Notes: generated by a model from the letters alone, not told the origin. 64,000 nucleotides of DNA from an uncultured Phocaeicola sp. (GCA_944320855.1 CALUJF010000006.1:17399-81398); one strand, 5' to 3'. Shown: positions 24,693-48,884, counted from the stretch's first letter. A program made the numbers and translations.

Positions 24693-24732
24693 AAAAAAGA
24701 TACTCCTAACAATCTCTATTGCCAGGAGTATC
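24693..24732 (-). terminator. candidate rho-independent terminator downstream of the LytTR regulator gene
   Basis: The 9-bp stem gatactcct (24699-24707) pairs with aggagtatc (24724-24732). On the minus strand it is followed by TTTTTT (plus-strand aaaaaa at 24693-24698). Confidence 0.5.
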
Positions 24733-24899
24733 ACAACACAAAAACTAAACTAGACTTAACTAAACTATTTTAAATGAGAAGTTTCACAACTTCTGTTCTT
24801 TATTCATTGCAAATATATGTTTTTTTATAACAAATACAAAAATATTGATAGATTTTTTACCGTGTTTTTGACAAAAAAGTTGAAACTGTAACTAAATAC

Positions 24900-36641: not shown

Positions 36642-37961
36642 TTACATATCATCCATTGACAGCCCTTCATAGGAGATTTTATACCCTTTGAACTCACCTG
36701 TGGCGCGCAAAAAGGCTTGTACCTTATGTTTAAGCATCTCTATATCAATGTTTACTGCCTTGTGTTTCACCTCGAAGAATGTGGCTTCTTCGTTCAACTC
36801 ATTCTCAACCACGATATCGATTTCATTCTCGCCCTTGCGATCCCACCAACCTCCGATGCGTGTGTAGGCTTGACGCTCTATCAGTACACGTCTGAAATAG
36901 CGTTCAAGCATCAGGCCGCTGAATGTCTCGTAGTCACGGTTGATAATCGTCTTCATGCTTTCGTAGTTTTCTATTTCCAACATATAACTGTACTTGTAGA
37001 TAAAGCGGAACCAGAAAGTGAAGAAGTTGTCTTCTATCGTATAGCGTACATTCTTGGTGGAACTTTTTTCGAAAAGGGGCTGCTTCTTGGCAATCACTTC
37101 GTACTCATTTTCCAGTTTGGTCAGGTAGCCGCCGATTTCCCTGCCTACCACGTTCTCTATTTCCGAACGGGAGGTCTTGCCTCTCGCTATGGCCGACAAA
37201 ATTGAGAAATACACCCCATAATCCTTGCCGAACTCCTCGATAAGGATAGCTTTCCCTTCTCCTAAGAAGATGGAGTCGGCCTTTATGATGTGGTCAAGCA
37301 TGGCAGACTTGGTCGTAGCCCCTGAATCCACAAGCAATTGTACATACTTGGCTACTCCGCCTGTGAACGAATACAGGGCAAGCAGGTCTTCTGCCGTGTG
37401 GTCAGGATAGTATTCCGTGAGGATTTCCTTAAGCACCGCCGGAGTGAACGGACGCACGGTCATAAAACGTGTCTGCCTGTTATACAGTGGTTCCTTCCTG
37501 TCCTTGAATATCTTCGTCATCATGGAGTATATCGAGCCGCAGACGACAAGGTTCATACGGGCTTTCGTGCTATATAAGTCCCAGATGCGCTGCATGTCAC
37601 TGTACACTGATTTGTTCACTCGGAAGAACTCCTGAAACTCGTCAATGAACAGCGTGATGGGACGCTCCGTGGAAAGTTTCATCAGGAATTCGAACACATC
37701 GGCGAAATGTTCCGCCCGTCCCATTGTCGGGATTCCTAATTTCTCTTCTATTTCAAGCCTATAATCTTCGCACAAGTCACCTTCGGCTTTTCGGGCAACG
37801 AAGAAATATAGGATAGGTTCATCCTCGTATGCCTTCCATACGAGAGAGGTCTTGCCAATACGGCGACGTCCTGTCACTACCGTGAACTGGGCGTTGTCTT
37901 TTGACATCCGTCGAATCTCACGCAAGGATGCTATTTCTTTTGTCCTGTCAAAAAATCTCAT
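36642..37961 (-). CDS. AAA-type ATPase (archaeal-ATPase/PF01637-like) with a DUF234-like C-terminal domain
   Basis: 439 aa. The N-terminal FFDRTKEI..FTVVTGRRRIGKTSLV is a Walker A, and LFIDEFQEF is a Walker B. The C-terminal GGWWDRKGENEIDIVVENE..ATFFEVKHK has an (E/D)..D-x(n)-E-x-K-type nuclease-fold pattern typical of DUF234 as I recall it. Confidence 0.8.
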   Translation of the reverse strand: MRFFDRTKEIASLREIRRMSKDNAQFTVVTGRRRIGKTSLVWKAYEDEPILYFFVARKAEGDLCEDYRLEIEEKLGIPTMGRAEHFADVFEFLMKLSTERPITLFIDEFQEFFRVNKSVYSDMQRIWDLYSTKARMNLVVCGSIYSMMTKIFKDRKEPLYNRQTRFMTVRPFTPAVLKEILTEYYPDHTAEDLLALYSFTGGVAKYVQLLVDSGATTKSAMLDHIIKADSIFLGEGKAILIEEFGKDYGVYFSILSAIARGKTSRSEIENVVGREIGGYLTKLENEYEVIAKKQPLFEKSSTKNVRYTIEDNFFTFWFRFIYKYSYMLEIENYESMKTIINRDYETFSGLMLERYFRRVLIERQAYTRIGGWWDRKGENEIDIVVENELNEEATFFEVKHKAVNIDIEMLKHKVQAFLRATGEFKGYKISYEGLSMDDM

Positions 37962-41590: not shown

Positions 41591-42331
41591 TTAGTTTTTC
41601 ACTTTCATCCTTTTCCAGATACATCTCGGAATTAGTTTCCAGAAGAATACTAAGATGCTGTATTTCCAGTCTATTATGGCTACCCGTTTATTTCTCCTTA
41701 AGGCTTTTACTATCAGTTTAGCTGCATATGGTGCTTTCATCAGCATAGGATAGTTCTTGCCGTCGTTAAGCAGGTTTGTAGCAACGAACCCGGGACGTAT
41801 GTCGGTGAAACGGATATTCAGTTTCTGCATTCCGGCAAGCTGCTCGAGTGCATCTATATATGTGTTCTGGAATCTCTTTGTTGCAGAATAGGCTGGTGCT
41901 ATTCCCAATCCCTTTGTACCGGCTATTGAGCTAATCACAGCTATGTGTCCTTTGCCTTTCTCCTTGAAATATCTGAAGGCAGTGCCTACTAATCTGGTAA
42001 ATCCTGTTCCGTTTGTTTCAAGTGTATTCAGCTCTATATCTGCATCAAGTCTGGCATTCTGATATCCTATGCCCGAACTGTGGAAGTACATGTCCATACC
42101 GCCGAGCTCGTCAATCAGAGCGAGGAGCGCCTTGTCAGAATTGCTGTCCTTTACGTCTATAGCCTTTATGCATACCTGTTCGGGAAATTCCGATTGTAGC
42201 ATTCTTAAATTCTCTTCTCTGCGGCCTGCCAGTCCAAGCTTCCAGCCATCTGAAAGCAGAAGTCGTGCCACCTCATATCCTAAGCCGGAAGTGGCTCCCA
42301 TTATCACTGCGCGTTTCGTATTGTTTGTCAT
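41591..42331 (-). CDS. short-chain dehydrogenase/reductase (SDR) family oxidoreductase
   Basis: The TGxxxGxG-type motif is GATSGLGYE and the catalytic motif is YSATK. It is 246 aa. Confidence 0.9.
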   Translation of the reverse strand: MTNNTKRAVIMGATSGLGYEVARLLLSDGWKLGLAGRREENLRMLQSEFPEQVCIKAIDVKDSNSDKALLALIDELGGMDMYFHSSGIGYQNARLDADIELNTLETNGTGFTRLVGTAFRYFKEKGKGHIAVISSIAGTKGLGIAPAYSATKRFQNTYIDALEQLAGMQKLNIRFTDIRPGFVATNLLNDGKNYPMLMKAPYAAKLIVKALRRNKRVAIIDWKYSILVFFWKLIPRCIWKRMKVKN

Positions 42332-42340
42332 TGCTGTTCT

Positions 42341-45300
42341 TTATCTGTTTGATTTGATTTCGTAAATAAACTCCTTGTATTCAGGGATATTACCATTCTT
42401 TCCCAGATAATATCTTGATATCATTGGCATCTGCTCATTTAGGTTGATGAACTCCTTTCCCAAGTGGCTGCAGAAAGCCATATACGCATTCCTGTTTGCC
42501 ATATTTCCCGCATCATCCCTGTAAATGGTGATATAGTGGTTCGTAGGACGTGCATGCACAAGTTGGTTTATGTGCATTGCGAGATGCCTTGCTTCAAGCG
42601 GAGATATACTTCCCATAATGTTCGACATATTGAAAATCACAAGCTCCGGAAGTATGGAATGTGATTTCCAGAATCCGTCGCTTACAGCCGTGATGCGTGG
42701 ATACAGACTCCATTTCACATGTCTGTAGCTTTCGGATGTCAGGAATCTCTCGCTTGCCTGTCCCATTTCTTCCGTAGGGTATATTCCCAAGTAATATATA
42801 TCCGTATGATTCAGCTGTCTGCACAGGTCGATGAATGCCAGTCCCGATGCAGCAGATTCGTATGATATATCGCAGAATACCACTCTGCCAGATACATTGC
42901 GTATGGCTTCCCTCAGCCAGTTTCCGCAATCCTCGTACATAGCCATTGCAGCCGAGTATTGTTTCCTCATTTCGTGGAAGTTGAACAGTAGGGTATAGTC
43001 GTCGGCTTTCAGTCCGTGCAGAGAGTTGAAATCCGTTCTTCCGTACGAAATCACTTCTTTGGCACGGGCGATATCCATTCCTGACATAGAGGTACTTTCG
43101 GAATATTGCTTTTCTATTATATCCCTGAAAGCCTGTTCAAATTCCGGTTTTATGGAATACGATTTCTCGTCCGTTTCCCAGTTCGTATCATACGAGGGTA
43201 TTCTGAAGTTACCTTTGCAGAAATCTTCCGTATCAGTTTCTATAAATCCGTTGTTCATGCGGATATATTCCATCAGCTTGTAGAATGTGATACTTGCGTT
43301 GAGAACCAGCGGATTACCTGTAAGTATCATCTGCTTTCTTGCGCGTGTGATGGCTACATTCAGTTTGCGGTCGATGATGGCATCTTCCTCTCTGAATGTA
43401 TTCGATGTCAGGAAGTTAAGCTGGCTGCTGTTCCTTACGGTGAATGAATATATAATGATATCCCTCTGGCTTCCCTGATATCTTTCTACAGTGTCGATGG
43501 AGATATTCATCAGTTCCGGAATGCCGAGAGATGAGATCTCCTTCCTTATCATTGCTATCTGGTTGCGGTAAGGCACAATGATTCCTACCGTCTTGTCTGC
43601 ATCGAAACAGTTCTCCGTCAGACCGTAGATTCTTTTCAGCAATGCCGCTATGATTCTTGCCTCGTTAATGTTTGCCTTGTCCGAAGATGCGGATATGTTT
43701 TCCGGGGTAGGAGCAGTGATGAAAACCATTCTCCTTGAAGTGAGAAGCTTTTCTATCATGTCCGGATTTTCCGGTATGTCGGCATACGGCAATTCCTCTT
43801 TCTGATGAGGTAGAGGTACACATTCCAGACACTCACGGCTGTAGAATGTGGTGTTCGGGAATTCAGCTATGGCCGGGTGCATTCGTCCCTGTTTCCTCAG
43901 TACGCTTTTAGCCCTTTCATCACTCTGCCTGTACAGTCTTTCGAACAGTGAGTTTCTGCAGTCATACAGTCCTATAACGTTCAGAAGCGGGTCTGTTACC
44001 TTGGCACATTCCGCATTCTGGAGTGCGATGGCAGGCAGCTGTTTGTAATCGCCTATAAGCACAAACTTGTCTATCGCATTGTTGTTGCCACTTCTTGCGG
44101 ATAGTATTCCTATCAGGTCCGGTTCAAGAATCTGTGAGGCCTCATCTATTATTGCCATATCGAAGTGCTTTATGTCAAACAGATTAAGCCTGTTGTTTAT
44201 GGAAGTAGTCGTTCCAACGAATATCCTTGTGTCCGAAATCTTCTTTTTGATGTCAGCAAGTTTCGGACAGTCTTCCAACTGTTTTTTCAGCAGGAACGGT
44301 TCGAATCTTCTGTCGCACGACATTTCATGCCCTATGCGGATGAAAGGCGTTTCGGATGCAATTCCCGAATCGACAAGCATACTGCAAATCTCGTCTACAG
44401 CCCTGTTGGTATACGATAATAGCAGCAGAGATGTATTCTTCTCCGAAAGAGCTTCTTCCACCATAAACCTCAGTGCGCACGAAGTCTTGCCCGTACCCGG
44501 AGGGCCGACAAGCAGGAAATAGTCCTCTGCCTGTTTCTCCTTTAGGATGATTTCATCAAAGCGTCCGTAACTGCCGTTCAGCTTTATTCCGTCATTGAAC
44601 GACGGCTCCCTGCTTCCTAAGAGAAGCTCTTTTCTGTCCGTGCGTGCCGACAGGAAAGAGAAAAGTCCTCTTATCCCGGCCGATGCCGAAACGTCCGATG
44701 AGTCATGTTCGATGGCAAAAGTTTCGTCATCGCCACCTATTATATCCTTGTTCTGCTGTCCGTTTCTTAGTATTATTGTAACACTGTCATGAGTGATTTC
44801 CGTAATGTTGCCTTTCATAAGAATCTCGTTTCTCACGTCAGGCTTATCAGTGTACGGATAGAATATTACTATATCTCCCTTTCTGAAATTAGGCAGAAAG
44901 TCTTCTCCCTGCACAGGTATGCTTAGTTCTATCAGGTCATACCCCTTGTTGGGCGAACTCTTGCGTTTGTCTTTTATTTTCAGACCGGTAAGAATGTTTC
45001 CGTTCTCTATTTTCTCTGCTAACGGAGTGTTCCATACCGAAGCGAAACCTCTGGATGAGTCGTCATTGCCTCCAGTGCGCGAGAGTACAGATTCCTTGCA
45101 TATGAAAGTAAAGAATCGCTGGAAATAAGCCTTTTCCAGTGGTGAGCAGTGTTTCAGAGTCTGAATGGTTTTATACAGTTCCGGCTCCTGATAGTCGGTC
45201 CAGAGCTTGTTGTGCACTTGCAGCTCGTTCAGCAAGTCAGTGTCTATTTCTTCCGTTACTTTCGAGATAGCCCCTTCGCTGAAGGCCATTTCGTTGCACA

Positions 45301-46618
45301 CTATCATGTTTCTCAGCTTGATACTCTCGCGGAAGAGTTTGTCCGTGAAATGCTCTATTATAAGTCCGTCCGTATATTTGGAGTAGAGCAGGAAGGTCTG
45401 CATATCCTCTGTGGCCTTTCCGAAGTTGTACATCAGAACGCCCTGATACAGCATCATCTGTATGAAATGGTCTTCCTTATGCCTCTTGTTGTACTCGTCC
45501 TTTTTGCCGGCCTTCTGTTCTATAAGGACCTTGAAGTCCTTTTGCAGCAAGTCCACACGTCCCTGCAATCCAAGTTTCTCGCAGATGAACGATGCTTCCA
45601 GCATGACCTTGTTTCTGTCGAACGAATGTATGCTGTGCGGCAGTTTGTCGTTTACGAAAGAGCGTATATTCATCATCTGTGTCTGCGCCATGGCATGAAA
45701 ATTCTCCGGTGGGGTACATGTGCAGAAATCAAGTGCCGAAGCCGAGAAGAATTTCTTCAGACTGCCGGCGTATGTCACAGGCTCCGTATTCTTCTCGTTG
45801 ATATAGTCATCGAGAAACTGTCCGGCCAGGTTACCCATAAGCGTGTGAGGATTGCTTACCTTAGGCTTTATGCGGCTCATGAAATAGTTCAGCGGATGAT
45901 GTCCGTACTCCCTGAAGCACGAAGCCAGCGAACTGATGTCGAGAAGGAAATCCGGGTGGAGTATTATCAGCTCCGGTATATAGTGGTTCTCCTCGTCCAC
46001 CTTCACTCCGAGCAGGTTTATCTGCATGTTCTCCTCCAGCAGGTCGTTCAGATACAGCATATCGCCGTTGAATCCCCCTTTGGCATAGTTTATTACTATC
46101 ATCGGGTCCTCGTCGCTGTCCGTCGATGCGAAAATCAGATTCTCGTTCCAGCTGTTCACCGATGCTCTGACGTAAGGGATATGCGACAGGCGTGTCCCGC
46201 TGTACGGGCGGTTGGAATGCGGAATCTGCGGAAGTATGTATGCCGGAATGTCCTCTTCAAAGCCTAACGATATGAATCTCACTATAGCCCTGAGGTCGTA
46301 GAGATACTCATTCATGTCCGGCTGGAAGTTGTCACCCATGGCCGAGTTGCAGTTACGCCTCATGGTCTGTATGGCATATCTGTCCGATGGAGTCATCTTC
46401 TTTTCCTTGCAGATGAAGTCCAGTCTGGAGAACATATTGGCAAATGAGGCCGTCACTCCCGTAGTCAGTTCGTATGATGCCTGTTGCAGAACCTTATATA
46501 GCAAAATGTACTTAGCCCGCAGGTTGTCTTGCGACGCTGCGGGCTGAGTATGTATTTTTTCTATTCTTTGGAAAAAATCAAAAGACTGTATGTCGATGTG
46601 TTCCGGTCTGTCTGTCAT
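42341..46618 (-). CDS. 1425-aa multidomain protein: unassigned N-terminal region, PD-(D/E)XK (RecB/Cas4-like) nuclease, SF1B Upf1/Dna2-like helicase, unassigned C-terminal ~295 aa
   Basis: Nuclease motifs are GRVD356LL, IE367QK369 and Q387MMLY391. Helicase motifs are GPPGTGKT (705-712), IIDEASQ (823-829), LIGDYKQLPA, RKQGRMHP, VERYQGSQRD and NVAITRARK. Residue numbers were counted from the ORF translation. Confidence 0.85.
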   Translation of the reverse strand: MTDRPEHIDIQSFDFFQRIEKIHTQPAASQDNLRAKYILLYKVLQQASYELTTGVTASFANMFSRLDFICKEKKMTPSDRYAIQTMRRNCNSAMGDNFQPDMNEYLYDLRAIVRFISLGFEEDIPAYILPQIPHSNRPYSGTRLSHIPYVRASVNSWNENLIFASTDSDEDPMIVINYAKGGFNGDMLYLNDLLEENMQINLLGVKVDEENHYIPELIILHPDFLLDISSLASCFREYGHHPLNYFMSRIKPKVSNPHTLMGNLAGQFLDDYINEKNTEPVTYAGSLKKFFSASALDFCTCTPPENFHAMAQTQMMNIRSFVNDKLPHSIHSFDRNKVMLEASFICEKLGLQGRVDLLQKDFKVLIEQKAGKKDEYNKRHKEDHFIQMMLYQGVLMYNFGKATEDMQTFLLYSKYTDGLIIEHFTDKLFRESIKLRNMIVCNEMAFSEGAISKVTEEIDTDLLNELQVHNKLWTDYQEPELYKTIQTLKHCSPLEKAYFQRFFTFICKESVLSRTGGNDDSSRGFASVWNTPLAEKIENGNILTGLKIKDKRKSSPNKGYDLIELSIPVQGEDFLPNFRKGDIVIFYPYTDKPDVRNEILMKGNITEITHDSVTIILRNGQQNKDIIGGDDETFAIEHDSSDVSASAGIRGLFSFLSARTDRKELLLGSREPSFNDGIKLNGSYGRFDEIILKEKQAEDYFLLVGPPGTGKTSCALRFMVEEALSEKNTSLLLLSYTNRAVDEICSMLVDSGIASETPFIRIGHEMSCDRRFEPFLLKKQLEDCPKLADIKKKISDTRIFVGTTTSINNRLNLFDIKHFDMAIIDEASQILEPDLIGILSARSGNNNAIDKFVLIGDYKQLPAIALQNAECAKVTDPLLNVIGLYDCRNSLFERLYRQSDERAKSVLRKQGRMHPAIAEFPNTTFYSRECLECVPLPHQKEELPYADIPENPDMIEKLLTSRRMVFITAPTPENISASSDKANINEARIIAALLKRIYGLTENCFDADKTVGIIVPYRNQIAMIRKEISSLGIPELMNISIDTVERYQGSQRDIIIYSFTVRNSSQLNFLTSNTFREEDAIIDRKLNVAITRARKQMILTGNPLVLNASITFYKLMEYIRMNNGFIETDTEDFCKGNFRIPSYDTNWETDEKSYSIKPEFEQAFRDIIEKQYSESTSMSGMDIARAKEVISYGRTDFNSLHGLKADDYTLLFNFHEMRKQYSAAMAMYEDCGNWLREAIRNVSGRVVFCDISYESAASGLAFIDLCRQLNHTDIYYLGIYPTEEMGQASERFLTSESYRHVKWSLYPRITAVSDGFWKSHSILPELVIFNMSNIMGSISPLEARHLAMHINQLVHARPTNHYITIYRDDAGNMANRNAYMAFCSHLGKEFINLNEQMPMISRYYLGKNGNIPEYKEFIYEIKSNR

Positions 46619-47433
46619 TAGTTTGCATTTTCTGTTTCAGAAGGTATTTCCAATATGTATTCCATAGTAGCTTCTTCCAACTTGCTGTATTGACCTTTAT
46701 AAATATCAGTTACGTCCTGAGACAATATATATTTATTTTCATCGCTTTGTTCATATAAATTCAAAACTATTTTCTGGAAGTTGTTATTGCTTGGCAGCAT
46801 TATGGTGAATTCTGTAATAGGCAATTTCAAATCGTCATCGAACGAACTGTTTTGATTGAAAATTCCGGAAATATAATCTTCATCTTCTGATGTCCAAATA
46901 GAAACATTACCATTGTTGAAATCTTTAGAGATGTATGTGAATTCAAAACGGCCCCCAATCTTGGCTATTGAGTTCTCCATCATTTTACTGTTGATTTCAT
47001 TTATTTGATTTTGAGTAAGTTCGCCTCCGATAATATTTGTCTTTATTTCTTTAACAATATAACATCTGTTTTTATTCTGTACAGCTACTATTATTCGGCT
47101 TAAATTGTCTTCACTGTCACTAATCTGCAGATAACTGCTTCCTTCTTTAACAGGACTTATTGTTAGAATTTCTCCATTATAATTGTATGTAATGACATTT
47201 TTATTATCATTTTCTATTATATCAATGATATATTTACCGTTCCCACCTTTTATATTATATTGCTCACCATCGGTAAATTTAGTAAGTTTTATAGTATCGT
47301 TGTTTGACACTACAGTCTTTCCGTCTATGCTTGTCAGTGTGATAGGAGAGTAACTGTCGCCGCATGAAGAAAGCGAGCTGATAAAAAATATACTTGTCAG
47401 AACAGTCAATGCTGAAAATAGATTTCTTTTCAT
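46618..47433 (-). CDS. lipoprotein of unknown function (Ig-like N-terminal segment), translationally coupled to the nuclease-helicase
   Basis: 271 aa with lipobox SSLSSC/GDS. The segment NIKGGNGKYIIDII..ILTISPVKEGSSYLQISD looks like a bacterial Ig-like fold. Its TAA overlaps the downstream ATG by 1 nt (minus strand cTAATGac at 46615-46622). The gene is visibly more AT-rich than its neighbours. Confidence 0.6.
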   Translation of the reverse strand: MKRNLFSALTVLTSIFFISSLSSCGDSYSPITLTSIDGKTVVSNNDTIKLTKFTDGEQYNIKGGNGKYIIDIIENDNKNVITYNYNGEILTISPVKEGSSYLQISDSEDNLSRIIVAVQNKNRCYIVKEIKTNIIGGELTQNQINEINSKMMENSIAKIGGRFEFTYISKDFNNGNVSIWTSEDEDYISGIFNQNSSFDDDLKLPITEFTIMLPSNNNFQKIVLNLYEQSDENKYILSQDVTDIYKGQYSKLEEATMEYILEIPSETENAN

Positions 47434-47505
47434 TTTTACTTGGTTTTATTGTTAATACATCGCAAAGTTATAAGATTATGTGAGAAATCAAAAATTACTC
47501 ACAAA

Positions 47506-48780
47506 TTATTTCTTGCCGAATTCATTGTCAATCTTCAGCAATGATGTAACCCAGAACGTGGCAGCCGTGCATATCATTATCCAGATGAAGAACATGCGGT
47601 ACCCCATTGTTTCCTGCAGCCAGCCGGCTATCATTCCCGGCAGCATCATTCCCAACGCCATAAACGCCGTACATATTGCATAGTGTGCAGTCTTGCTTTC
47701 CCCTTGCGAGAAATAAATCATGTAAAGCATATATGCAGTAAAACCAAAACCATAGCCGAATTGTTCGATGAAGATGCACAAATTTATAACCGGCAGACTG
47801 CTGTGCTGGAAGAAACTGAGATACACATAAACGATGTCGGGCAGTGATATAGCCCATACCATAGGCCAGAGCCATTTCTTCAGGCCGTGGCGCGAGACGG
47901 CTATTCCTCCCAATATACCGCCGAGCGTAAGACCTATCACACCCACTGTCCCCTGTGTGAAACCTATCTGCTCTGTGGTCATTCCCATACCGCCCTTTTC
48001 TATAGGGTCGAGAAGGAAGGGGATACCCATCTTGGCCAGTTGCGCTTCAGGCAGACGGTAGAGCAGCATGAACAGTATAGCTACAGCAGCCTGTTCCTTC
48101 CTGAAAAAAGAACGGAATGTATCTATGAATGACGACAGAATACCTTTTGAACCATTGCTGTTCACCTTTATATCCGACGACGGACGCGGAAGAATCCATC
48201 TGTGATACAGCCACAGTCCGATGAACAGTCCTGCGAGAATGTAGAAAGTGATGCTCCAAGCGCGGCTGATGCTCCCTCCGCTGCTTTCCAGATATCCGGC
48301 CAGCATAATCAGTCCACCTTGCCCTGTGATAGTGGCAAGACGGTAGAAAGTACTTCTGATACCTACAAACAGAGCCTGTTCGTGTTGCGTAAGCCCTATC
48401 ATATAGAACCCGTCGGCCGCTATGTCGTGAGTGGCAGAGCTGAAAGCCATCAGCCAGAAAATGGCGAGAGTAGTCTGCAGGAACGAATCCGTAGGAATGG
48501 TGAAAGCTATCCCGGCCAGTCCGGCACCTATCAGCAACTGCATGGCAGTTATCCAGTAGCGCTTGGTCTTTATGATGTCTACAAACGGACTCCAAAGCGG
48601 CTTTATAACCCATGGCAGGTTAAGCCAACTGGTATAAAGAGCCACTTCAGTGTTAGAAATCCCCATTCGCTTGTACATCACGAGCGATATTATCATAACG
48701 GCCACGTAGGGCAGCCCTTCGGCAAAATACAGCGAAGGTACCCATGCCCATGGCGAACGTGTTTTCATTGTTTTGTGCAT
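47506..48780 (-). CDS. ampG: MFS transporter, AmpG-type muropeptide permease
   Basis: 424 aa. The N-terminal SLYFAEGLPYV..WLNLPWVIKPLWSPFVD matches the AmpG signature (LPW.lK.LWsP.vD), followed by about 12 hydrophobic segments. Confidence 0.75.
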   Translation of the reverse strand: MHKTMKTRSPWAWVPSLYFAEGLPYVAVMIISLVMYKRMGISNTEVALYTSWLNLPWVIKPLWSPFVDIIKTKRYWITAMQLLIGAGLAGIAFTIPTDSFLQTTLAIFWLMAFSSATHDIAADGFYMIGLTQHEQALFVGIRSTFYRLATITGQGGLIMLAGYLESSGGSISRAWSITFYILAGLFIGLWLYHRWILPRPSSDIKVNSNGSKGILSSFIDTFRSFFRKEQAAVAILFMLLYRLPEAQLAKMGIPFLLDPIEKGGMGMTTEQIGFTQGTVGVIGLTLGGILGGIAVSRHGLKKWLWPMVWAISLPDIVYVYLSFFQHSSLPVINLCIFIEQFGYGFGFTAYMLYMIYFSQGESKTAHYAICTAFMALGMMLPGMIAGWLQETMGYRMFFIWIMICTAATFWVTSLLKIDNEFGKK

Positions 48781-48884
48781 ATATTTAAGTATACAAGTTA
48801 ACGAGTTGACAAGTCGACAAGGTTTTTGTTAAATAGTAGACAGGTTTTCCTGTTACCTTGTAACTGTGGCCTTGTTACCTTTTA

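What the first reader, a model, noticed from the sequence alone, without database searches (positions are those of the whole stretch)
42341..47433. Exported lipoprotein translationally coupled to a 1425-aa PD-(D/E)XK nuclease / SF1B helicase with two unassigned domains
Seen in sequence: the TAA of the lipoprotein gene overlaps the ATG of the large ORF by one base (minus strand cTAATGac). The large ORF has a complete RecB/Cas4-type nuclease motif set (D356, E367-x-K369, Q387xxxY391) and a complete Upf1/Dna2-like SF1B motif set (GPPGTGKT, IIDEASQ, GDYKQLPA, QGRMHP, YQGSQRD, ITRARK). About 330 N-terminal and about 295 C-terminal residues carry no motif I can place. Established knowledge: single polypeptides combining a nuclease with an SF1 helicase occur both as repair enzymes (Dna2, AddAB-type) and as anti-phage effectors (Nhi-type nuclease-helicases, and the helicase-nuclease logic of Hachiman and Mokosh). 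Inference: pairing a cytoplasmic DNA enzyme with a secreted lipoprotein in one translational unit is not a standard repair arrangement. The lipoprotein gene is also visibly more AT-rich than its surroundings, which hints at an acquired two-gene module, either defence or an envelope-sensing-to-DNA effector. This is my best candidate for an undescribed system in the window.
Basis: partly seen in the sequence, partly recalled or inferred. Interest (0 to 1): 0.7.

Follow-up and report, generated by a model that had tools for sequence, protein, structure and literature searches.

The report
Dna2-like nuclease-helicase beside variable lipoprotein
A fast-varying cell-envelope lipoprotein gene sits in front of a large DNA-cutting and DNA-unwinding enzyme of an uncharacterised, Bacteroidales-wide Dna2-like family, but the two genes evolve independently in a stable chromosomal neighbourhood, so this looks like DNA maintenance rather than a new two-gene defence system.

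Summary
A 271-aa lipoprotein ORF (46618-47433, minus) ends in TAATG with the ATG of a 1425-aa ORF (42341-46618). All stated nuclease and SF1B helicase motifs are present, and only the lipoprotein gene is AT-rich.

The interpretation as an acquired two-gene defence or envelope-sensing module is not supported.
- The large protein belongs to a large family: 1235 clusters at 50% identity, mostly about 1130 aa.
- Family members lie in housekeeping chromosomal contexts in Bacteroides, Phocaeicola and Prevotella, and none was found in phage records.
- Its N-terminal half matches only mouse Dna2 by fold, but it lacks the Dna2/AddB/Cas4 Fe-S cysteines.
- Its C-terminal 305 residues are a class I methyltransferase fold. 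The SAM-binding motifs are lost here but intact in distant relatives.
- In 63 species genomes the helicase-SDR-MatE order is conserved. The lipoprotein is present in 46 of 63.
- The lipoprotein occurs in at least three divergent allele classes that recombine independently of the helicase.
- The helicase is under strong purifying selection (dN/dS 0.02-0.09).

Best reading: a Dna2-like DNA-end-processing enzyme with a dead methyltransferase module, co-transcribed with an unrelated variable lipoprotein. A defence role is not excluded.

The parts
47463..47492 (-). Candidate Bacteroides-type promoter: -33 TTTG (47489-47492), an 18-nt spacer, and -7 TAACTTTG (47463-47470), about 30 nt upstream of the lipoprotein ATG
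   Evidence: It is one of only two TAnnTTTG matches in 6.3 kb of this strand and the only one with a -33 TTTG. Sequence read. This is a consensus match only, not shown to be active.
47362..47433 (-). Lipoprotein signal peptide and lipobox (residues 1-24, LSSC24), followed by GDSYSP
   Evidence: Most orthologues have C[KSG]DD(D)Y after the cysteine, which matches the Bacteroides lipoprotein export signal CS(D/E)2 / K(D/E)2 (PMC6222051). The window copy has only one Asp.
47059..47361 (-). Lipoprotein N-domain (residues 25-125), a probable Ig-like beta-sandwich with the conserved motifs F..GE.F.I.GG.G.Y and YDG..LT..P
   Evidence: Alignments. Weak sub-threshold Pfam hits to Ig_NUP210_9th (8 of 28 members) and T2SS-T3SS_pil_N (5 of 28). 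It still aligns at the DNA level (92%) with the closest genome, L001.
46618..47058 (-). Lipoprotein C-domain (residues 126-271 plus stop), an allelic cassette of unknown fold
   Evidence: The DNA alignment with L001/L038 breaks at exactly 46619-47054, while the flanks are 92-96% identical. Three allele classes share 30-39% identity, and their distribution is incongruent with helicase identity. No Pfam or PDB sequence match.
46214..46618 (-). Helicase protein residues 1-135: N-terminal helical domain, conserved family-wide (invariant R87)
   Evidence: AF2 pLDDT is 80-94 for residues 10-130. This region is part of the 677-column Foldseek alignment to mouse Dna2 5ean_A. Conserved across 1235 representative clusters.
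45299..46213 (-). Residues 136-440: small beta-barrel (146-220), helical region, and RecB/Cas4-type PD-(D/E)XK nuclease core (E341, D356, E367-x-K369, Q387xxxY391)
   Evidence: These residues are invariant in 42 diverse family members. Weak Pfam Dna2 PF08696 hit at 196-331 (E 7.7e-4, 19.7 bits, below the 22.4 cutoff). Weak Cas4 hits. The AF2 core 337-424 is low confidence. No conserved Cys tetrad.
44549..45298 (-). Residues 441-690: helical stalk plus beta-barrel (542-640), like the stalk/1B elements of Upf1-like helicases and Dna2
   Evidence: Secondary structure. Foldseek hits to Dna2, Ighmbp2, SETX and Upf1.
43259..44548 (-). Residues 691-1120: SF1B (Upf1/Dna2-like) helicase core with Walker A K711, DEASQ 825-829 and all later motifs
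   Evidence: Pfam AAA_11/AAA_12. NCBIfam IGHMBP2-family helicase and PLuB_AAA matches, both below cutoff. PADLOC MkoA/MkoC/DpdJ hits cover this region only.
42341..43258 (-). Residues 1121-1425 plus stop: class I SAM-methyltransferase-like Rossmann domain with degenerate cofactor motifs. S1252-Y-E1254-S-A1256 replaces GxGxG, and Y1280 replaces the beta2 Asp/Glu.
   Evidence: AF2 pLDDT 88.5, pTM 0.88. Foldseek finds methyltransferases only, in PDB (METTL17 8csu_7 E 1e-6, lmo1582 2f8l, TrmN and others) and in BFVD. The alignment with relatives that keep GCGPxT and G[IV]D is; some of those relatives hit Pfam Methyltransf_25/31. dN/dS 0.06-0.085. The domain is absent in L042/L048 and in most of the family.
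41591..42331 (-). SDR-family oxidoreductase gene, 9 nt downstream on the same strand; probably the third gene of the transcription unit
   Evidence: Found directly downstream of the helicase in 54 of 63 loci.

Best explanation
The region holds two functionally separate genes that share a promoter.

(1) The 1425-aa protein is the Phocaeicola (plebeius/coprocola/caecigallinarum clade) branch of a large, uncharacterised Bacteroidales family of Dna2-like enzymes. The domain order is an N-terminal helical domain and small barrel, a RecB-type PD-(D/E)XK nuclease, a stalk and beta-barrel, then an SF1B 5'-3' helicase.

Inferred mechanism, by analogy with Dna2 and the bacterial Dna2-like enzyme Bad: the enzyme loads on a single-stranded DNA end or flap, the motor translocates 5'-3', and the strand is fed to the nuclease. 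This would process ends, flaps or stalled forks in chromosomal DNA maintenance. Like RecBCD or AddAB it could incidentally degrade foreign linear DNA.

The C-terminal 305 residues are a methyltransferase fold that has lost both SAM-binding motifs but remains under purifying selection. It most likely acts as a non-catalytic binding or regulatory module inherited from relatives in which the domain looks active.

(2) The 271-aa gene encodes an envelope lipoprotein, surface-exposed in most orthologues judging by their export signal. It has an Ig-like N-domain and a C-domain that exists as divergent, recombining alleles, which fits diversifying pressure from phage, host or competitors. It is co-transcribed with the helicase and an SDR gene, but the helicase does not need it.

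Shown: the anatomy, folds, motif states, distribution, synteny and selection. Inferred: the substrate, the polarity, the repair role, surface exposure and co-transcription.
For: Catalytic residues.
- The nuclease and helicase catalytic residues are invariant across 42 members that are only 34-57% identical.

Fold.
- The only significant PDB fold match of residues 1-690 is mouse Dna2 5ean_A (E 8.6e-11, 677 columns). It is followed by the Ighmbp2, SETX and Upf1 barrels.

Size and spread of the family.
- 1235 clusters at 50% identity have E<=1e-3, and 501 have E<=1e-30. The modal length is 1100-1170 aa.
- Chromosomal housekeeping contexts are seen in three genera. B. finegoldii has murF/alr-tatA-tatC-HEL. 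P. massiliensis has murF/alr then HEL. Prevotella has an MltF-like gene upstream.
- There are no phage hits. The 3 'plasmid' hits are non-mobilizable chromosome-like records. The viral-contig scan gave helicase-level hits only.

This clade.
- 63 species-level loci were found. HEL-SDR is kept in 54 and MatE in 45. A P-type ATPase is the usual upstream flank.
- dN/dS is 0.02-0.09 for all five helicase regions.
- No PADLOC model matches outside the helicase core, and no defence genes are adjacent.

Lipoprotein independence.
- It is absent from 17 of 63 loci.
- Its allele classes are incongruent with the helicase tree.
- The dS mosaics are reciprocal. Against L003 the lipoprotein has dS 0.01-0.08 and HEL 0.8-1.2 over residues 176-1425 (0.26 for 1-175). 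Against L001 the lipoprotein has dS 0.8-1.9 and HEL 0.05-0.33.

Methyltransferase domain.
- The model is high-confidence and all fold matches are methyltransferases.
- Motif loss here against retention in relatives is shown.
Against: - No experiment exists for any family member, and no paper on it was found.
- The AF2 model of the N-half is mediocre: pLDDT 67.9, nuclease core below 50, TM to Dna2 only 0.35.
- The Fe-S cysteine tetrad that defines Dna2, Bad, AddB and Cas4 nucleases is not conserved.
- Lineages are unusually divergent for a housekeeping enzyme. This clade is 36-44% identical to the Bacteroides, P. massiliensis and Prevotella homologues, and the two Prevotella homologues are 36% identical to each other. 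This clade is only 35-41% identical to the P. massiliensis copy although both are Phocaeicola. It may therefore be a paralogue or xenologue rather than the orthologue of the murF-linked copy.
- Relatives carry NERD and apparently active methyltransferase domains and a tightly linked DUF1848 gene. That modular pattern is more typical of defence or DNA-modification systems.
- The lipoprotein adjacency persists down to 25% lipoprotein identity, so a functional link cannot be excluded.
Confidence: 0.55

Rival explanations
1. The large protein is a chromosomally fixed anti-phage or anti-plasmid nuclease-helicase, working like Nhi, Hachiman, Mokosh or RecBCD. It would sense or attack foreign DNA ends or replication intermediates. 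The methyltransferase-like domain would be a remnant of an ancestral self-marking (restriction-modification-like) activity or a sensor.
For: - The helicase core scores best against the defence helicases MkoA/MkoC, DpdJ, PDC-S68/S37, ProA and Hhe.
- Distant relatives have an N-terminal NERD domain and a methyltransferase domain with intact SAM motifs, giving a nuclease-motor-methyltransferase order like single-chain Type ISP R-M enzymes.
- Divergence between lineages is high and domain content is patchy.
- A PDC-S27-like candidate defence ATPase lies 4.4 kb away.
Against: - The defence-model matches cover only the generic SF1B core, residues about 690-1120. None covers the N-half or reaches a curated cutoff.
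- The gene is present in every related genome found, at a syntenic site, under strong purifying selection, without island features or flanking repeats.
- It is absent from the phage collection and from mobilizable plasmids.
- In this clade the methyltransferase motifs are destroyed.
Confidence: 0.2
2. The lipoprotein and the helicase form a functional two-gene system. An exported lipoprotein would report an envelope event such as phage adsorption and control the cytoplasmic nuclease-helicase.
For: - The adjacency, orientation and short spacing are conserved in 46 of 63 species, even where the lipoproteins are only 25-35% identical.
- There is a 1-nt overlap here and in 5 close relatives.
- A single candidate promoter lies upstream of the pair.
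- The diversifying C-domain is what a phage-facing sensor would show.
Against: - A lipoprotein anchored in the outer membrane has no evident route to a cytoplasmic enzyme, and no transmembrane partner is encoded here.
- The helicase persists without the lipoprotein in 17 of 63 loci and in all other genera.
- Lipoprotein alleles reassort freely against helicase alleles, with breakpoints at the junction.
- The SDR and MatE neighbours are conserved just as well, so the conserved order is explained by shared ancestry within one genus.
Confidence: 0.07
3. The enzyme acts on RNA or on RNA:DNA hybrids. It would be a Upf1/Senataxin/IGHMBP2-like helicase working in RNA surveillance or R-loop removal, with the nuclease degrading the displaced strand.
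For: - The closest curated helicase models are IGHMBP2-family (TIGR00376, E 7e-47) and the MOV10-like MkoA.
- The fold matches to the barrel and stalk are Ighmbp2, SETX and Upf1.
- The methyltransferase-fold matches include many RNA methyltransferases (METTL17, TrmN, METTL16-like PsiM).
Against: - The nuclease carries the RecB/Cas4/Dna2 motif set, including QxxxY, which in characterised enzymes is a DNA nuclease (established knowledge).
- The only full-length fold match of the N-half is Dna2.
Confidence: 0.08

Closest known systems
Eukaryotic Dna2 (mouse Dna2, PDB 5EAN) and the bacterial Dna2-like enzyme Bad of Geobacillus stearothermophilus (PMC7430649)
   Same: - A single polypeptide with a RecB-type PD-(D/E)XK nuclease N-terminal to an SF1B Upf1-like helicase, joined by a barrel and stalk.
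- Dna2 is the only significant fold match of residues 1-690.
- There is a weak Pfam Dna2 hit.
- One database source names a homologue 'Dna2'.
   Different: - There is no conserved four-cysteine Fe-S signature. Bad and Dna2 require it.
- No sequence-level match to any PDB chain.
- The Pfam Dna2 score is below threshold.
- It has an extra C-terminal methyltransferase-like domain.
- The first ~135 residues form a family-specific helical domain.
Nhi (SERP2475) nuclease-helicase immunity protein (bioRxiv 10.1101/776245)
   Same: An N-terminal PD-(D/E)XK nuclease plus an SF1 helicase in one protein.
   Different: - Nhi is about 600 aa with a DUF2075/PF09848 helicase. It is rare (under 1% of genomes), often plasmid-borne and sits near defence genes.
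- This protein hits PF09848 only at E 0.022, is 1425 aa, and is syntenic and chromosomal.
Mokosh MkoA/MkoC and other defence helicases with AAA_11/AAA_12 cores (DpdJ, Hhe, ProA, PLuB)
   Same: The helicase core is the closest match (MkoA E 2.6e-54).
   Different: - The matches cover only residues about 570-1123 and are far below the curated cutoffs.
- There is no PLD-nuclease partner or domain.
- The N-half is unrelated.
Type ISP restriction-modification enzymes (LlaGI/LlaBIII type; from own knowledge)
   Same: The domain order nuclease - ATP motor - methyltransferase in one chain. This applies especially to the distant relatives with intact SAM motifs.
   Different: - The motor here is SF1B, not SF2.
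- There is no target-recognition domain.
- The methyltransferase motifs are lost in this clade, and no catalytic (D/N/S)PP(Y/F) motif is present.
Pseudo-methyltransferase modules such as the GRAS domain
   Same: A class I Rossmann methyltransferase fold retained without canonical cofactor motifs. GRAS proteins are among the fold matches.
   Different: The similarity is at fold level only (TM 0.3-0.5, about 10% identity). No specific relationship is implied.

Membership tests
Dna2 / Bad (Dna2-like nuclease-helicases) | RecB-family nuclease motifs (E, D, ExK, QxxxY) N-terminal to the helicase | tested here: met
   E341, D356, E367, K369, Q387 and Y391 are invariant in 42 diverse members.
Dna2 / Bad (Dna2-like nuclease-helicases) | Four conserved cysteines coordinating a 4Fe-4S cluster that spans the nuclease domain | tested here: not met
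   There is no Cys after QxxxY. C234, C301 and C346 are conserved in only 36, 26 and 35 of 42 members, and C299 in 9 of 42. The requirement is described for Bad, Dna2 and AddB in PMC7430649.
Dna2 / Bad (Dna2-like nuclease-helicases) | SF1B (Upf1-like) helicase motifs in the C-terminal half | tested here: met
   Pfam AAA_11/AAA_12. All motifs are invariant.
Dna2 / Bad (Dna2-like nuclease-helicases) | Overall fold of the N-terminal half (domain before the nuclease, nuclease, barrel, stalk) like Dna2 | tested here: inconclusive
   5ean_A is the sole significant Foldseek hit (E 8.6e-11, probability 1.0, 677 columns). However, TM is 0.35, the model pLDDT is 67.9 and the nuclease core is below 50.
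Dna2 / Bad (Dna2-like nuclease-helicases) | Sequence-profile membership (Pfam PF08696 Dna2) | tested here: not met
   19.7 bits against a cutoff of 22.4, E 7.7e-4, residues 196-331 only. The profile search of the PDB found nothing.
Nhi | DUF2075 / PF09848 helicase core | tested here: not met
   PF09848 scores E 0.022, 14.5 bits against a cutoff of 24.
Nhi | Sporadic, often plasmid-borne distribution near defence genes | tested here: not met
   The gene is syntenic in 63 species, has no phage hits and no mobilizable-plasmid hits, and has housekeeping neighbours.
Mokosh (MkoA+MkoB, or MkoC) | Full-length match to MkoA/MkoC, plus a PLD nuclease partner or domain | tested here: not met
   The PADLOC hits cover only the helicase region 795-1123. 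No PLD domain is found in the protein or its neighbours.
Hachiman (HamA+HamB) | A HamA nuclease partner and a HamB helicase | tested here: not met
   The PADLOC scans found no HamA or HamB model hit in either protein of the pair (E up to 0.1) or in the nine neighbours (E up to 1e-5).
Class I SAM-dependent methyltransferases | Seven-stranded Rossmann-like fold | tested here: met
   The AF2 model has pLDDT 88.5. All of the top 50 PDB matches listed and most BFVD matches are methyltransferases or proteins with that fold.
Class I SAM-dependent methyltransferases | Motif I (D/E)xGxGxG after beta1, and an acidic residue at the end of beta2 | tested here: not met
   The window has D1250-I-S-Y-E-S-A-A-S and G-I-Y1280-P. 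Relatives P0157, P0236, P0228, P0214 and others have DxGCGPxT and G(I/V)D. Only those relatives touch Pfam Methyltransf_25/31/12.
Type ISP restriction-modification | SF2 translocase, active N6-adenine methyltransferase and a target-recognition domain | tested here: not met
   The motor is SF1B. The methyltransferase motifs are lost. There is no further C-terminal domain: the protein ends with the methyltransferase fold.
Bacterial lipoproteins (Bacteroidota surface lipoproteins) | Signal peptide with a lipobox cysteine | tested here: met
   MKRN...ISSLSSC24. A cysteine-containing lipobox is conserved in the orthologues.
Bacterial lipoproteins (Bacteroidota surface lipoproteins) | Lipoprotein export signal C(S/K)(D/E)2 that directs surface exposure | tested here: inconclusive
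   Most orthologues read CKDD, CSDD or CGDD(D)Y. The window copy reads CGDSY, with a single Asp. The motif definition comes from PMC6222051.

The most novel reading that the evidence does not exclude
The whole family, this protein included, could be an undescribed class of single-chain nuclease - SF1B motor - methyltransferase genome-surveillance enzymes.
- Ancestrally it would work like an R-M system, with self-marking by the methyltransferase. Some lineages add a NERD domain and a DUF1848 partner.
- The Phocaeicola branch would have lost methylation and converted the domain into a sensor.
- Co-transcription with a diversifying surface lipoprotein would then tie expression of a phage-exposed envelope protein to an intracellular anti-phage nuclease.
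Probability: 0.12. Interest if true: 0.75.

Novelty: new variant of a known kind. Interest (0 to 1): 0.35.

Why it matters
- Bacteroidales are dominant gut bacteria whose DNA-repair and anti-phage equipment is poorly characterised.
- This work defines a very large family with no curated model for its N- or C-terminal regions. It has 1235 clusters at 50% identity and is annotated only as 'AAA domain-containing protein' or 'DEAD/DEAH box helicase'.
- The family has a Dna2-like architecture without the Fe-S cluster. If it is a repair enzyme, it is a bacterial analogue of Dna2 built differently from Bad.
- The subfamilies with NERD, an apparently active methyltransferase and a DUF1848 partner suggest a link between end-processing and DNA modification that could be tested.
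- The lipoprotein is a clear example of allelic-cassette variation in a gut commensal envelope protein.
- For the scan itself, the case shows that a start/stop overlap plus a local AT-rich gene does not by itself indicate an acquired functional module.

Tried and rejected
Residues 1-690 were searched instead.
It was redone with substrings of permitted proteins.
- Sequence-profile searches of the PDB with the N-half, the C-domain and the lipoprotein: nothing meaningful.
- Third homologue search, using a diverse family profile: it returned mostly the same Phocaeicola proteins again, so it gave little new diversity and no taxon names for distant members. The cluster look-up likewise gave almost no names.
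It returned only 25%-identity helicase-level hits, so it is a weak negative.
- Metagenome scan with a diverse nuclease-core alignment: rejected as too divergent. The single scan was then spent on the NERD-methyltransferase relative P0157.
- NJ tree to test whether the methyltransferase-bearing members form one clade: they scatter. At these distances the tree cannot separate repeated loss from domain shuffling.
- Literature searches for a described Bacteroides Dna2-like or Upf1-like nuclease-helicase, or for DUF1848: nothing relevant.
- Mobile-element boundaries: no meaningful direct or inverted repeats flank the pair.
- Considered and rejected: Nhi, Mokosh, Hachiman and Type ISP membership (see the membership tests), and an Fe-S Dna2/Cas4-type nuclease.
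- Not resolved: whether genomes of this clade also carry the murF/tatC-linked paralogue seen in B. finegoldii and P. massiliensis.

Full report
**1. Observation**

The two ORFs are exactly as described. 42341..46618 (-) encodes 1425 aa and 46618..47433 (-) encodes 271 aa. The minus strand reads ...AAC TAATG ACA..., so the stop and start codons share base 46618.

- The small protein has a classical lipoprotein signal (MKRN-hydrophobic-LSSC24).
All are invariant in 16 orthologues of 67-91% identity.
- GC is 0.31-0.33 over the lipoprotein gene against 0.43-0.51 around it.
- Pfam, NCBIfam and PADLOC recognise only the SF1B core (AAA_11/AAA_12, residues about 690-1120). Beyond that there are sub-threshold Dna2 (PF08696, residues 196-331) and Cas4 hits. 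The lipoprotein matches nothing.

**2. The large protein**

*A large family.* A phmmer search of residues 1-690 against 1.84 billion representative proteins found 1235 clusters at 50% identity with E<=1e-3, and 501 with E<=1e-30. Most align over the whole 690 residues. The modal total length is 1100-1170 aa, which is the N-half plus the helicase without the C-terminal extension.

Across 42 members that are 34-57% identical to the window protein, the following are invariant: R87, R151, P222-D223, G262, E341, G350, G353-R354, D356, E367, K369, G371, H384, Q387, Y391 and all helicase motifs. Both catalytic centres are therefore maintained family-wide.

*N-terminal half.* The AF2 model of residues 1-690 is of medium quality (pLDDT 67.9). 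The helical domain 10-130 scores about 90, but the nuclease core 337-424 is below 50.

- Its only significant PDB fold match is mouse Dna2 (5ean_A, E 8.6e-11, 677 aligned columns, TM 0.35).
- The next matches are the barrel and stalk regions of Ighmbp2, SETX and Upf1.
- The defining Fe-S cysteine tetrad of Dna2, Bad, AddB and Cas4 (PMC7430649) is not conserved.

The protein works like a Dna2-type enzyme in architecture, but it fails one defining membership feature.

*C-terminal 305 residues.* This domain gave a confident model (pLDDT 88.5, pTM 0.88). All of its fold matches are class I SAM-dependent methyltransferases or proteins with that fold: METTL17, lmo1582, nicotianamine synthase, GRAS, TrmN, PsiM, and viral DNA and RNA methyltransferases.

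About 14 of the 150 best representatives carry a homologous domain.

- In the distant ones motif I reads D-x-G-C-G-P-x-T and the beta2 end reads G-(I/V)-D. Some touch Pfam Methyltransf_25/31/12, and several also have an N-terminal NERD domain.
- In the window clade these positions read D1250-I-S-Y-E-S-A-A-S and G-I-Y1280-P. Both cofactor motifs are lost.
- The domain is nevertheless under purifying selection (dN/dS 0.06-0.085).
- It has been deleted in two species of the same clade, L042 and L048 (1137 aa).

I read it as a non-catalytic module derived from an active methyltransferase.

**3. Where the gene lives**

The genome-collection scan returned 63 loci. Of these, 62 are in Phocaeicola or 'Bacteroides' of the plebeius, coprocola, coprophilus, barnesiae and caecigallinarum group (48-98% identity). 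One is a Prevotella (41% identity, no C-domain). The window is closest to uncultured Bacteroides sp. UMGS630 (98%) and to B. caecigallinarum.

- An SDR gene follows the helicase on the same strand in 54 of 63 loci, and a convergent MatE gene follows in 45.
- The usual upstream flank is a P-type ATPase. In the window's subgroup it is AmpG-SpoIID-GT2 instead.

Outside the clade:

- The B. finegoldii homologue (1135 aa) follows murF/alr-tatA-tatC and overlaps tatC by 26 nt.
- The P. massiliensis homologue follows murF/alr.
- The Prevotella homologue follows an MltF-like transglycosylase.

Mobile elements and defence context:

- tblastn of the N-half found nothing in 50,697 phage records. Among plasmid records it found only three non-mobilizable, chromosome-like records.
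- No repeats flank the pair.
- The neighbours have no defence-model hits, except a DUF234 ATPase 4.4 kb away that matches candidate PDC-S27.
- dN/dS of all five helicase regions is 0.02-0.09.

This is the profile of a vertically inherited chromosomal gene, not of a defence island.

One caveat remains. This clade is only 35-41% identical to the B. finegoldii and P. massiliensis copies, which are 63% identical to each other. It may therefore be a paralogue or xenologue of that copy. I could not test whether both occur in one genome.

**4. The lipoprotein**

A 257-300-aa lipoprotein lies directly upstream of the helicase in 46 of 63 loci, at identities down to 25%. Its conserved motifs are C[KSG]DD.Y.PI.L, F..GE.F.I.GG.G.Y, YDG..LT..P, GG.F.FTY, and DVT..Y...YP.LEKAY.

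- Most copies carry a CS/K(D/E)2-type lipoprotein export signal (PMC6222051), which suggests surface exposure. The window copy (CGDSY) is weaker.
- Only weak Ig-like hints exist for the N-domain, and there is no PDB sequence match.
- 17 loci lack the gene. In L008, L019 and L033 the ATPase directly precedes the helicase. In P. coprocola (L044) the upstream genes are divergent.
- The 1-nt overlap occurs only in the window and five close relatives. Elsewhere there are overlaps of 4 or 11 nt, or gaps of 2-138 nt.

Among the closest genomes the gene is mosaic.

- DNA identity to L001 and L038 is 92-96% on both sides, but the alignment breaks at exactly 46619-47054, which is the C-domain.
- The C-domain falls into three allele classes with 30-39% identity between them. 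Their distribution contradicts the helicase tree. L001 has a helicase 98% identical but a different lipoprotein class, L003 has 92% and the same class, and L052 has 81% and the same class.
- Synonymous divergence confirms reciprocal recombination at the junction. Against L003 the lipoprotein has dS 0.01-0.08 and the helicase 0.8-1.2 over residues 176-1425 (0.26 for 1-175). Against L001 the lipoprotein has dS 0.8-1.9 and the helicase 0.05-0.33.

The low GC and the divergence are therefore properties of the lipoprotein alone. The two genes do not travel as a unit.

**5. Transcription**

A Bacteroides-type promoter consensus lies about 30 nt upstream of the lipoprotein ATG. It consists of TTTG, 18 nt, then TAACTTTG at 47463-47492. 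The only other TAnnTTTG in the 6.3 kb lacks a -33 element.

Given the 1-nt and 9-nt junctions, lipoprotein-helicase-SDR is probably one transcript. This is inferred and was not shown.

**6. Mechanism**

The best-supported reading (confidence 0.55) is a Dna2-like ssDNA-end, flap or fork-processing nuclease-helicase of chromosomal DNA maintenance. It carries a dead methyltransferase-fold module and is co-transcribed with an unrelated, allelically diversifying envelope lipoprotein.

Rival readings:

- A fixed anti-phage or anti-plasmid nuclease-helicase (0.20). This is supported by the NERD and methyltransferase modularity of relatives and by the high divergence between lineages.
- A genuine lipoprotein-helicase system (0.07).
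- An RNA or R-loop enzyme (0.08).

**7. Comparison and novelty**

The closest known enzymes are Dna2 and Bad. They share the architecture and the nuclease and helicase motif sets. This protein lacks the Fe-S cluster, has a different N-terminus and has an added pseudo-methyltransferase.

It is not Nhi (no DUF2075 core, different size and distribution). It is not Mokosh or Hachiman (only generic helicase similarity, no partners). It is not Type ISP R-M (SF1B rather than SF2 motor, no target-recognition domain, dead methyltransferase).

I found no paper describing this family. I rate it a new variant of a known kind.

Interest is moderate (0.35). The proposed two-gene system is not supported. The family itself is large, unannotated and architecturally distinctive, and its branch with NERD, methyltransferase and DUF1848 deserves separate study.

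Noticed in passing
window 36642-37961 (-): A 439-aa ATPase_2 + DUF234 protein matches the PADLOC candidate single-gene defence system PDC-S27 (E 1.3e-46). Among the 63 related loci it is present only in the window and L052, so it is a variable insertion between LysR and PGM.
   Followed up: partly
window 24693-24801 (-): Rfam match above the gathering score to the Bacteroides sRNA BTnc049 (87 bits, E 7.7e-14).
   Followed up: no
L076-L095, L134, L140, L146, L152 (metagenome loci); e.g. L077 7935-8999 and L152 7886-8971: Distant relatives of the helicase (about 1620-1650 aa) have an N-terminal NERD domain and a C-terminal methyltransferase with intact SAM motifs. In 21 of 80 loci they are immediately preceded (2-33 nt) by a DUF1848 (PF08902) gene. 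In L077 a RecD-like helicase lies just upstream as well. This conserved pair is uncharacterised.
   Followed up: partly
L097-L131, L143, L144 (human-gut metagenome contigs): About 25 of these independently assembled contigs end only about 50-240 nt upstream of the start codon of the NERD-helicase relative; a few more end 320-1140 nt upstream. This is a recurrent assembly break. It suggests a repeat or a strain-variable or invertible element just upstream.
   Followed up: no
window 46619-48783 compared with L003 and L001: There is a reciprocal recombination mosaic. The AmpG-like MFS gene plus the lipoprotein gene are nearly identical to L003 (dS 0.01-0.18), while the adjacent helicase (residues 176-1425) has dS 0.8-1.2. 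Against L001 the pattern is reversed.
   Followed up: yes
L064 8971-12378 (Bacteroides finegoldii 'plasmid 23') and L074 (Phocaeicola massiliensis 'plasmid 17'): These PLSDB 'plasmid' records carry murF/alr, tatAC, dxs and trkAH and are typed non-mobilizable, so they look like chromosomal fragments. The helicase homologue overlaps tatC by 26 nt in L064.
   Followed up: partly
L042 9995-13408 and L048 3926-7339: Two species of the same clade (Candidatus Phocaeicola merdavium and an uncultured Bacteroides) encode a 1137-aa version that ends right after the helicase core. This is a natural deletion of the methyltransferase-like domain, with the SDR gene still downstream.
   Followed up: partly
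L035 8107-9762 and L037 6214-7869: In two divergent 'P. plebeius' MAGs a different 551-aa lipoprotein (lipobox LISC/LLSC) occupies the position upstream of the helicase instead of the 270-aa family.
   Followed up: no
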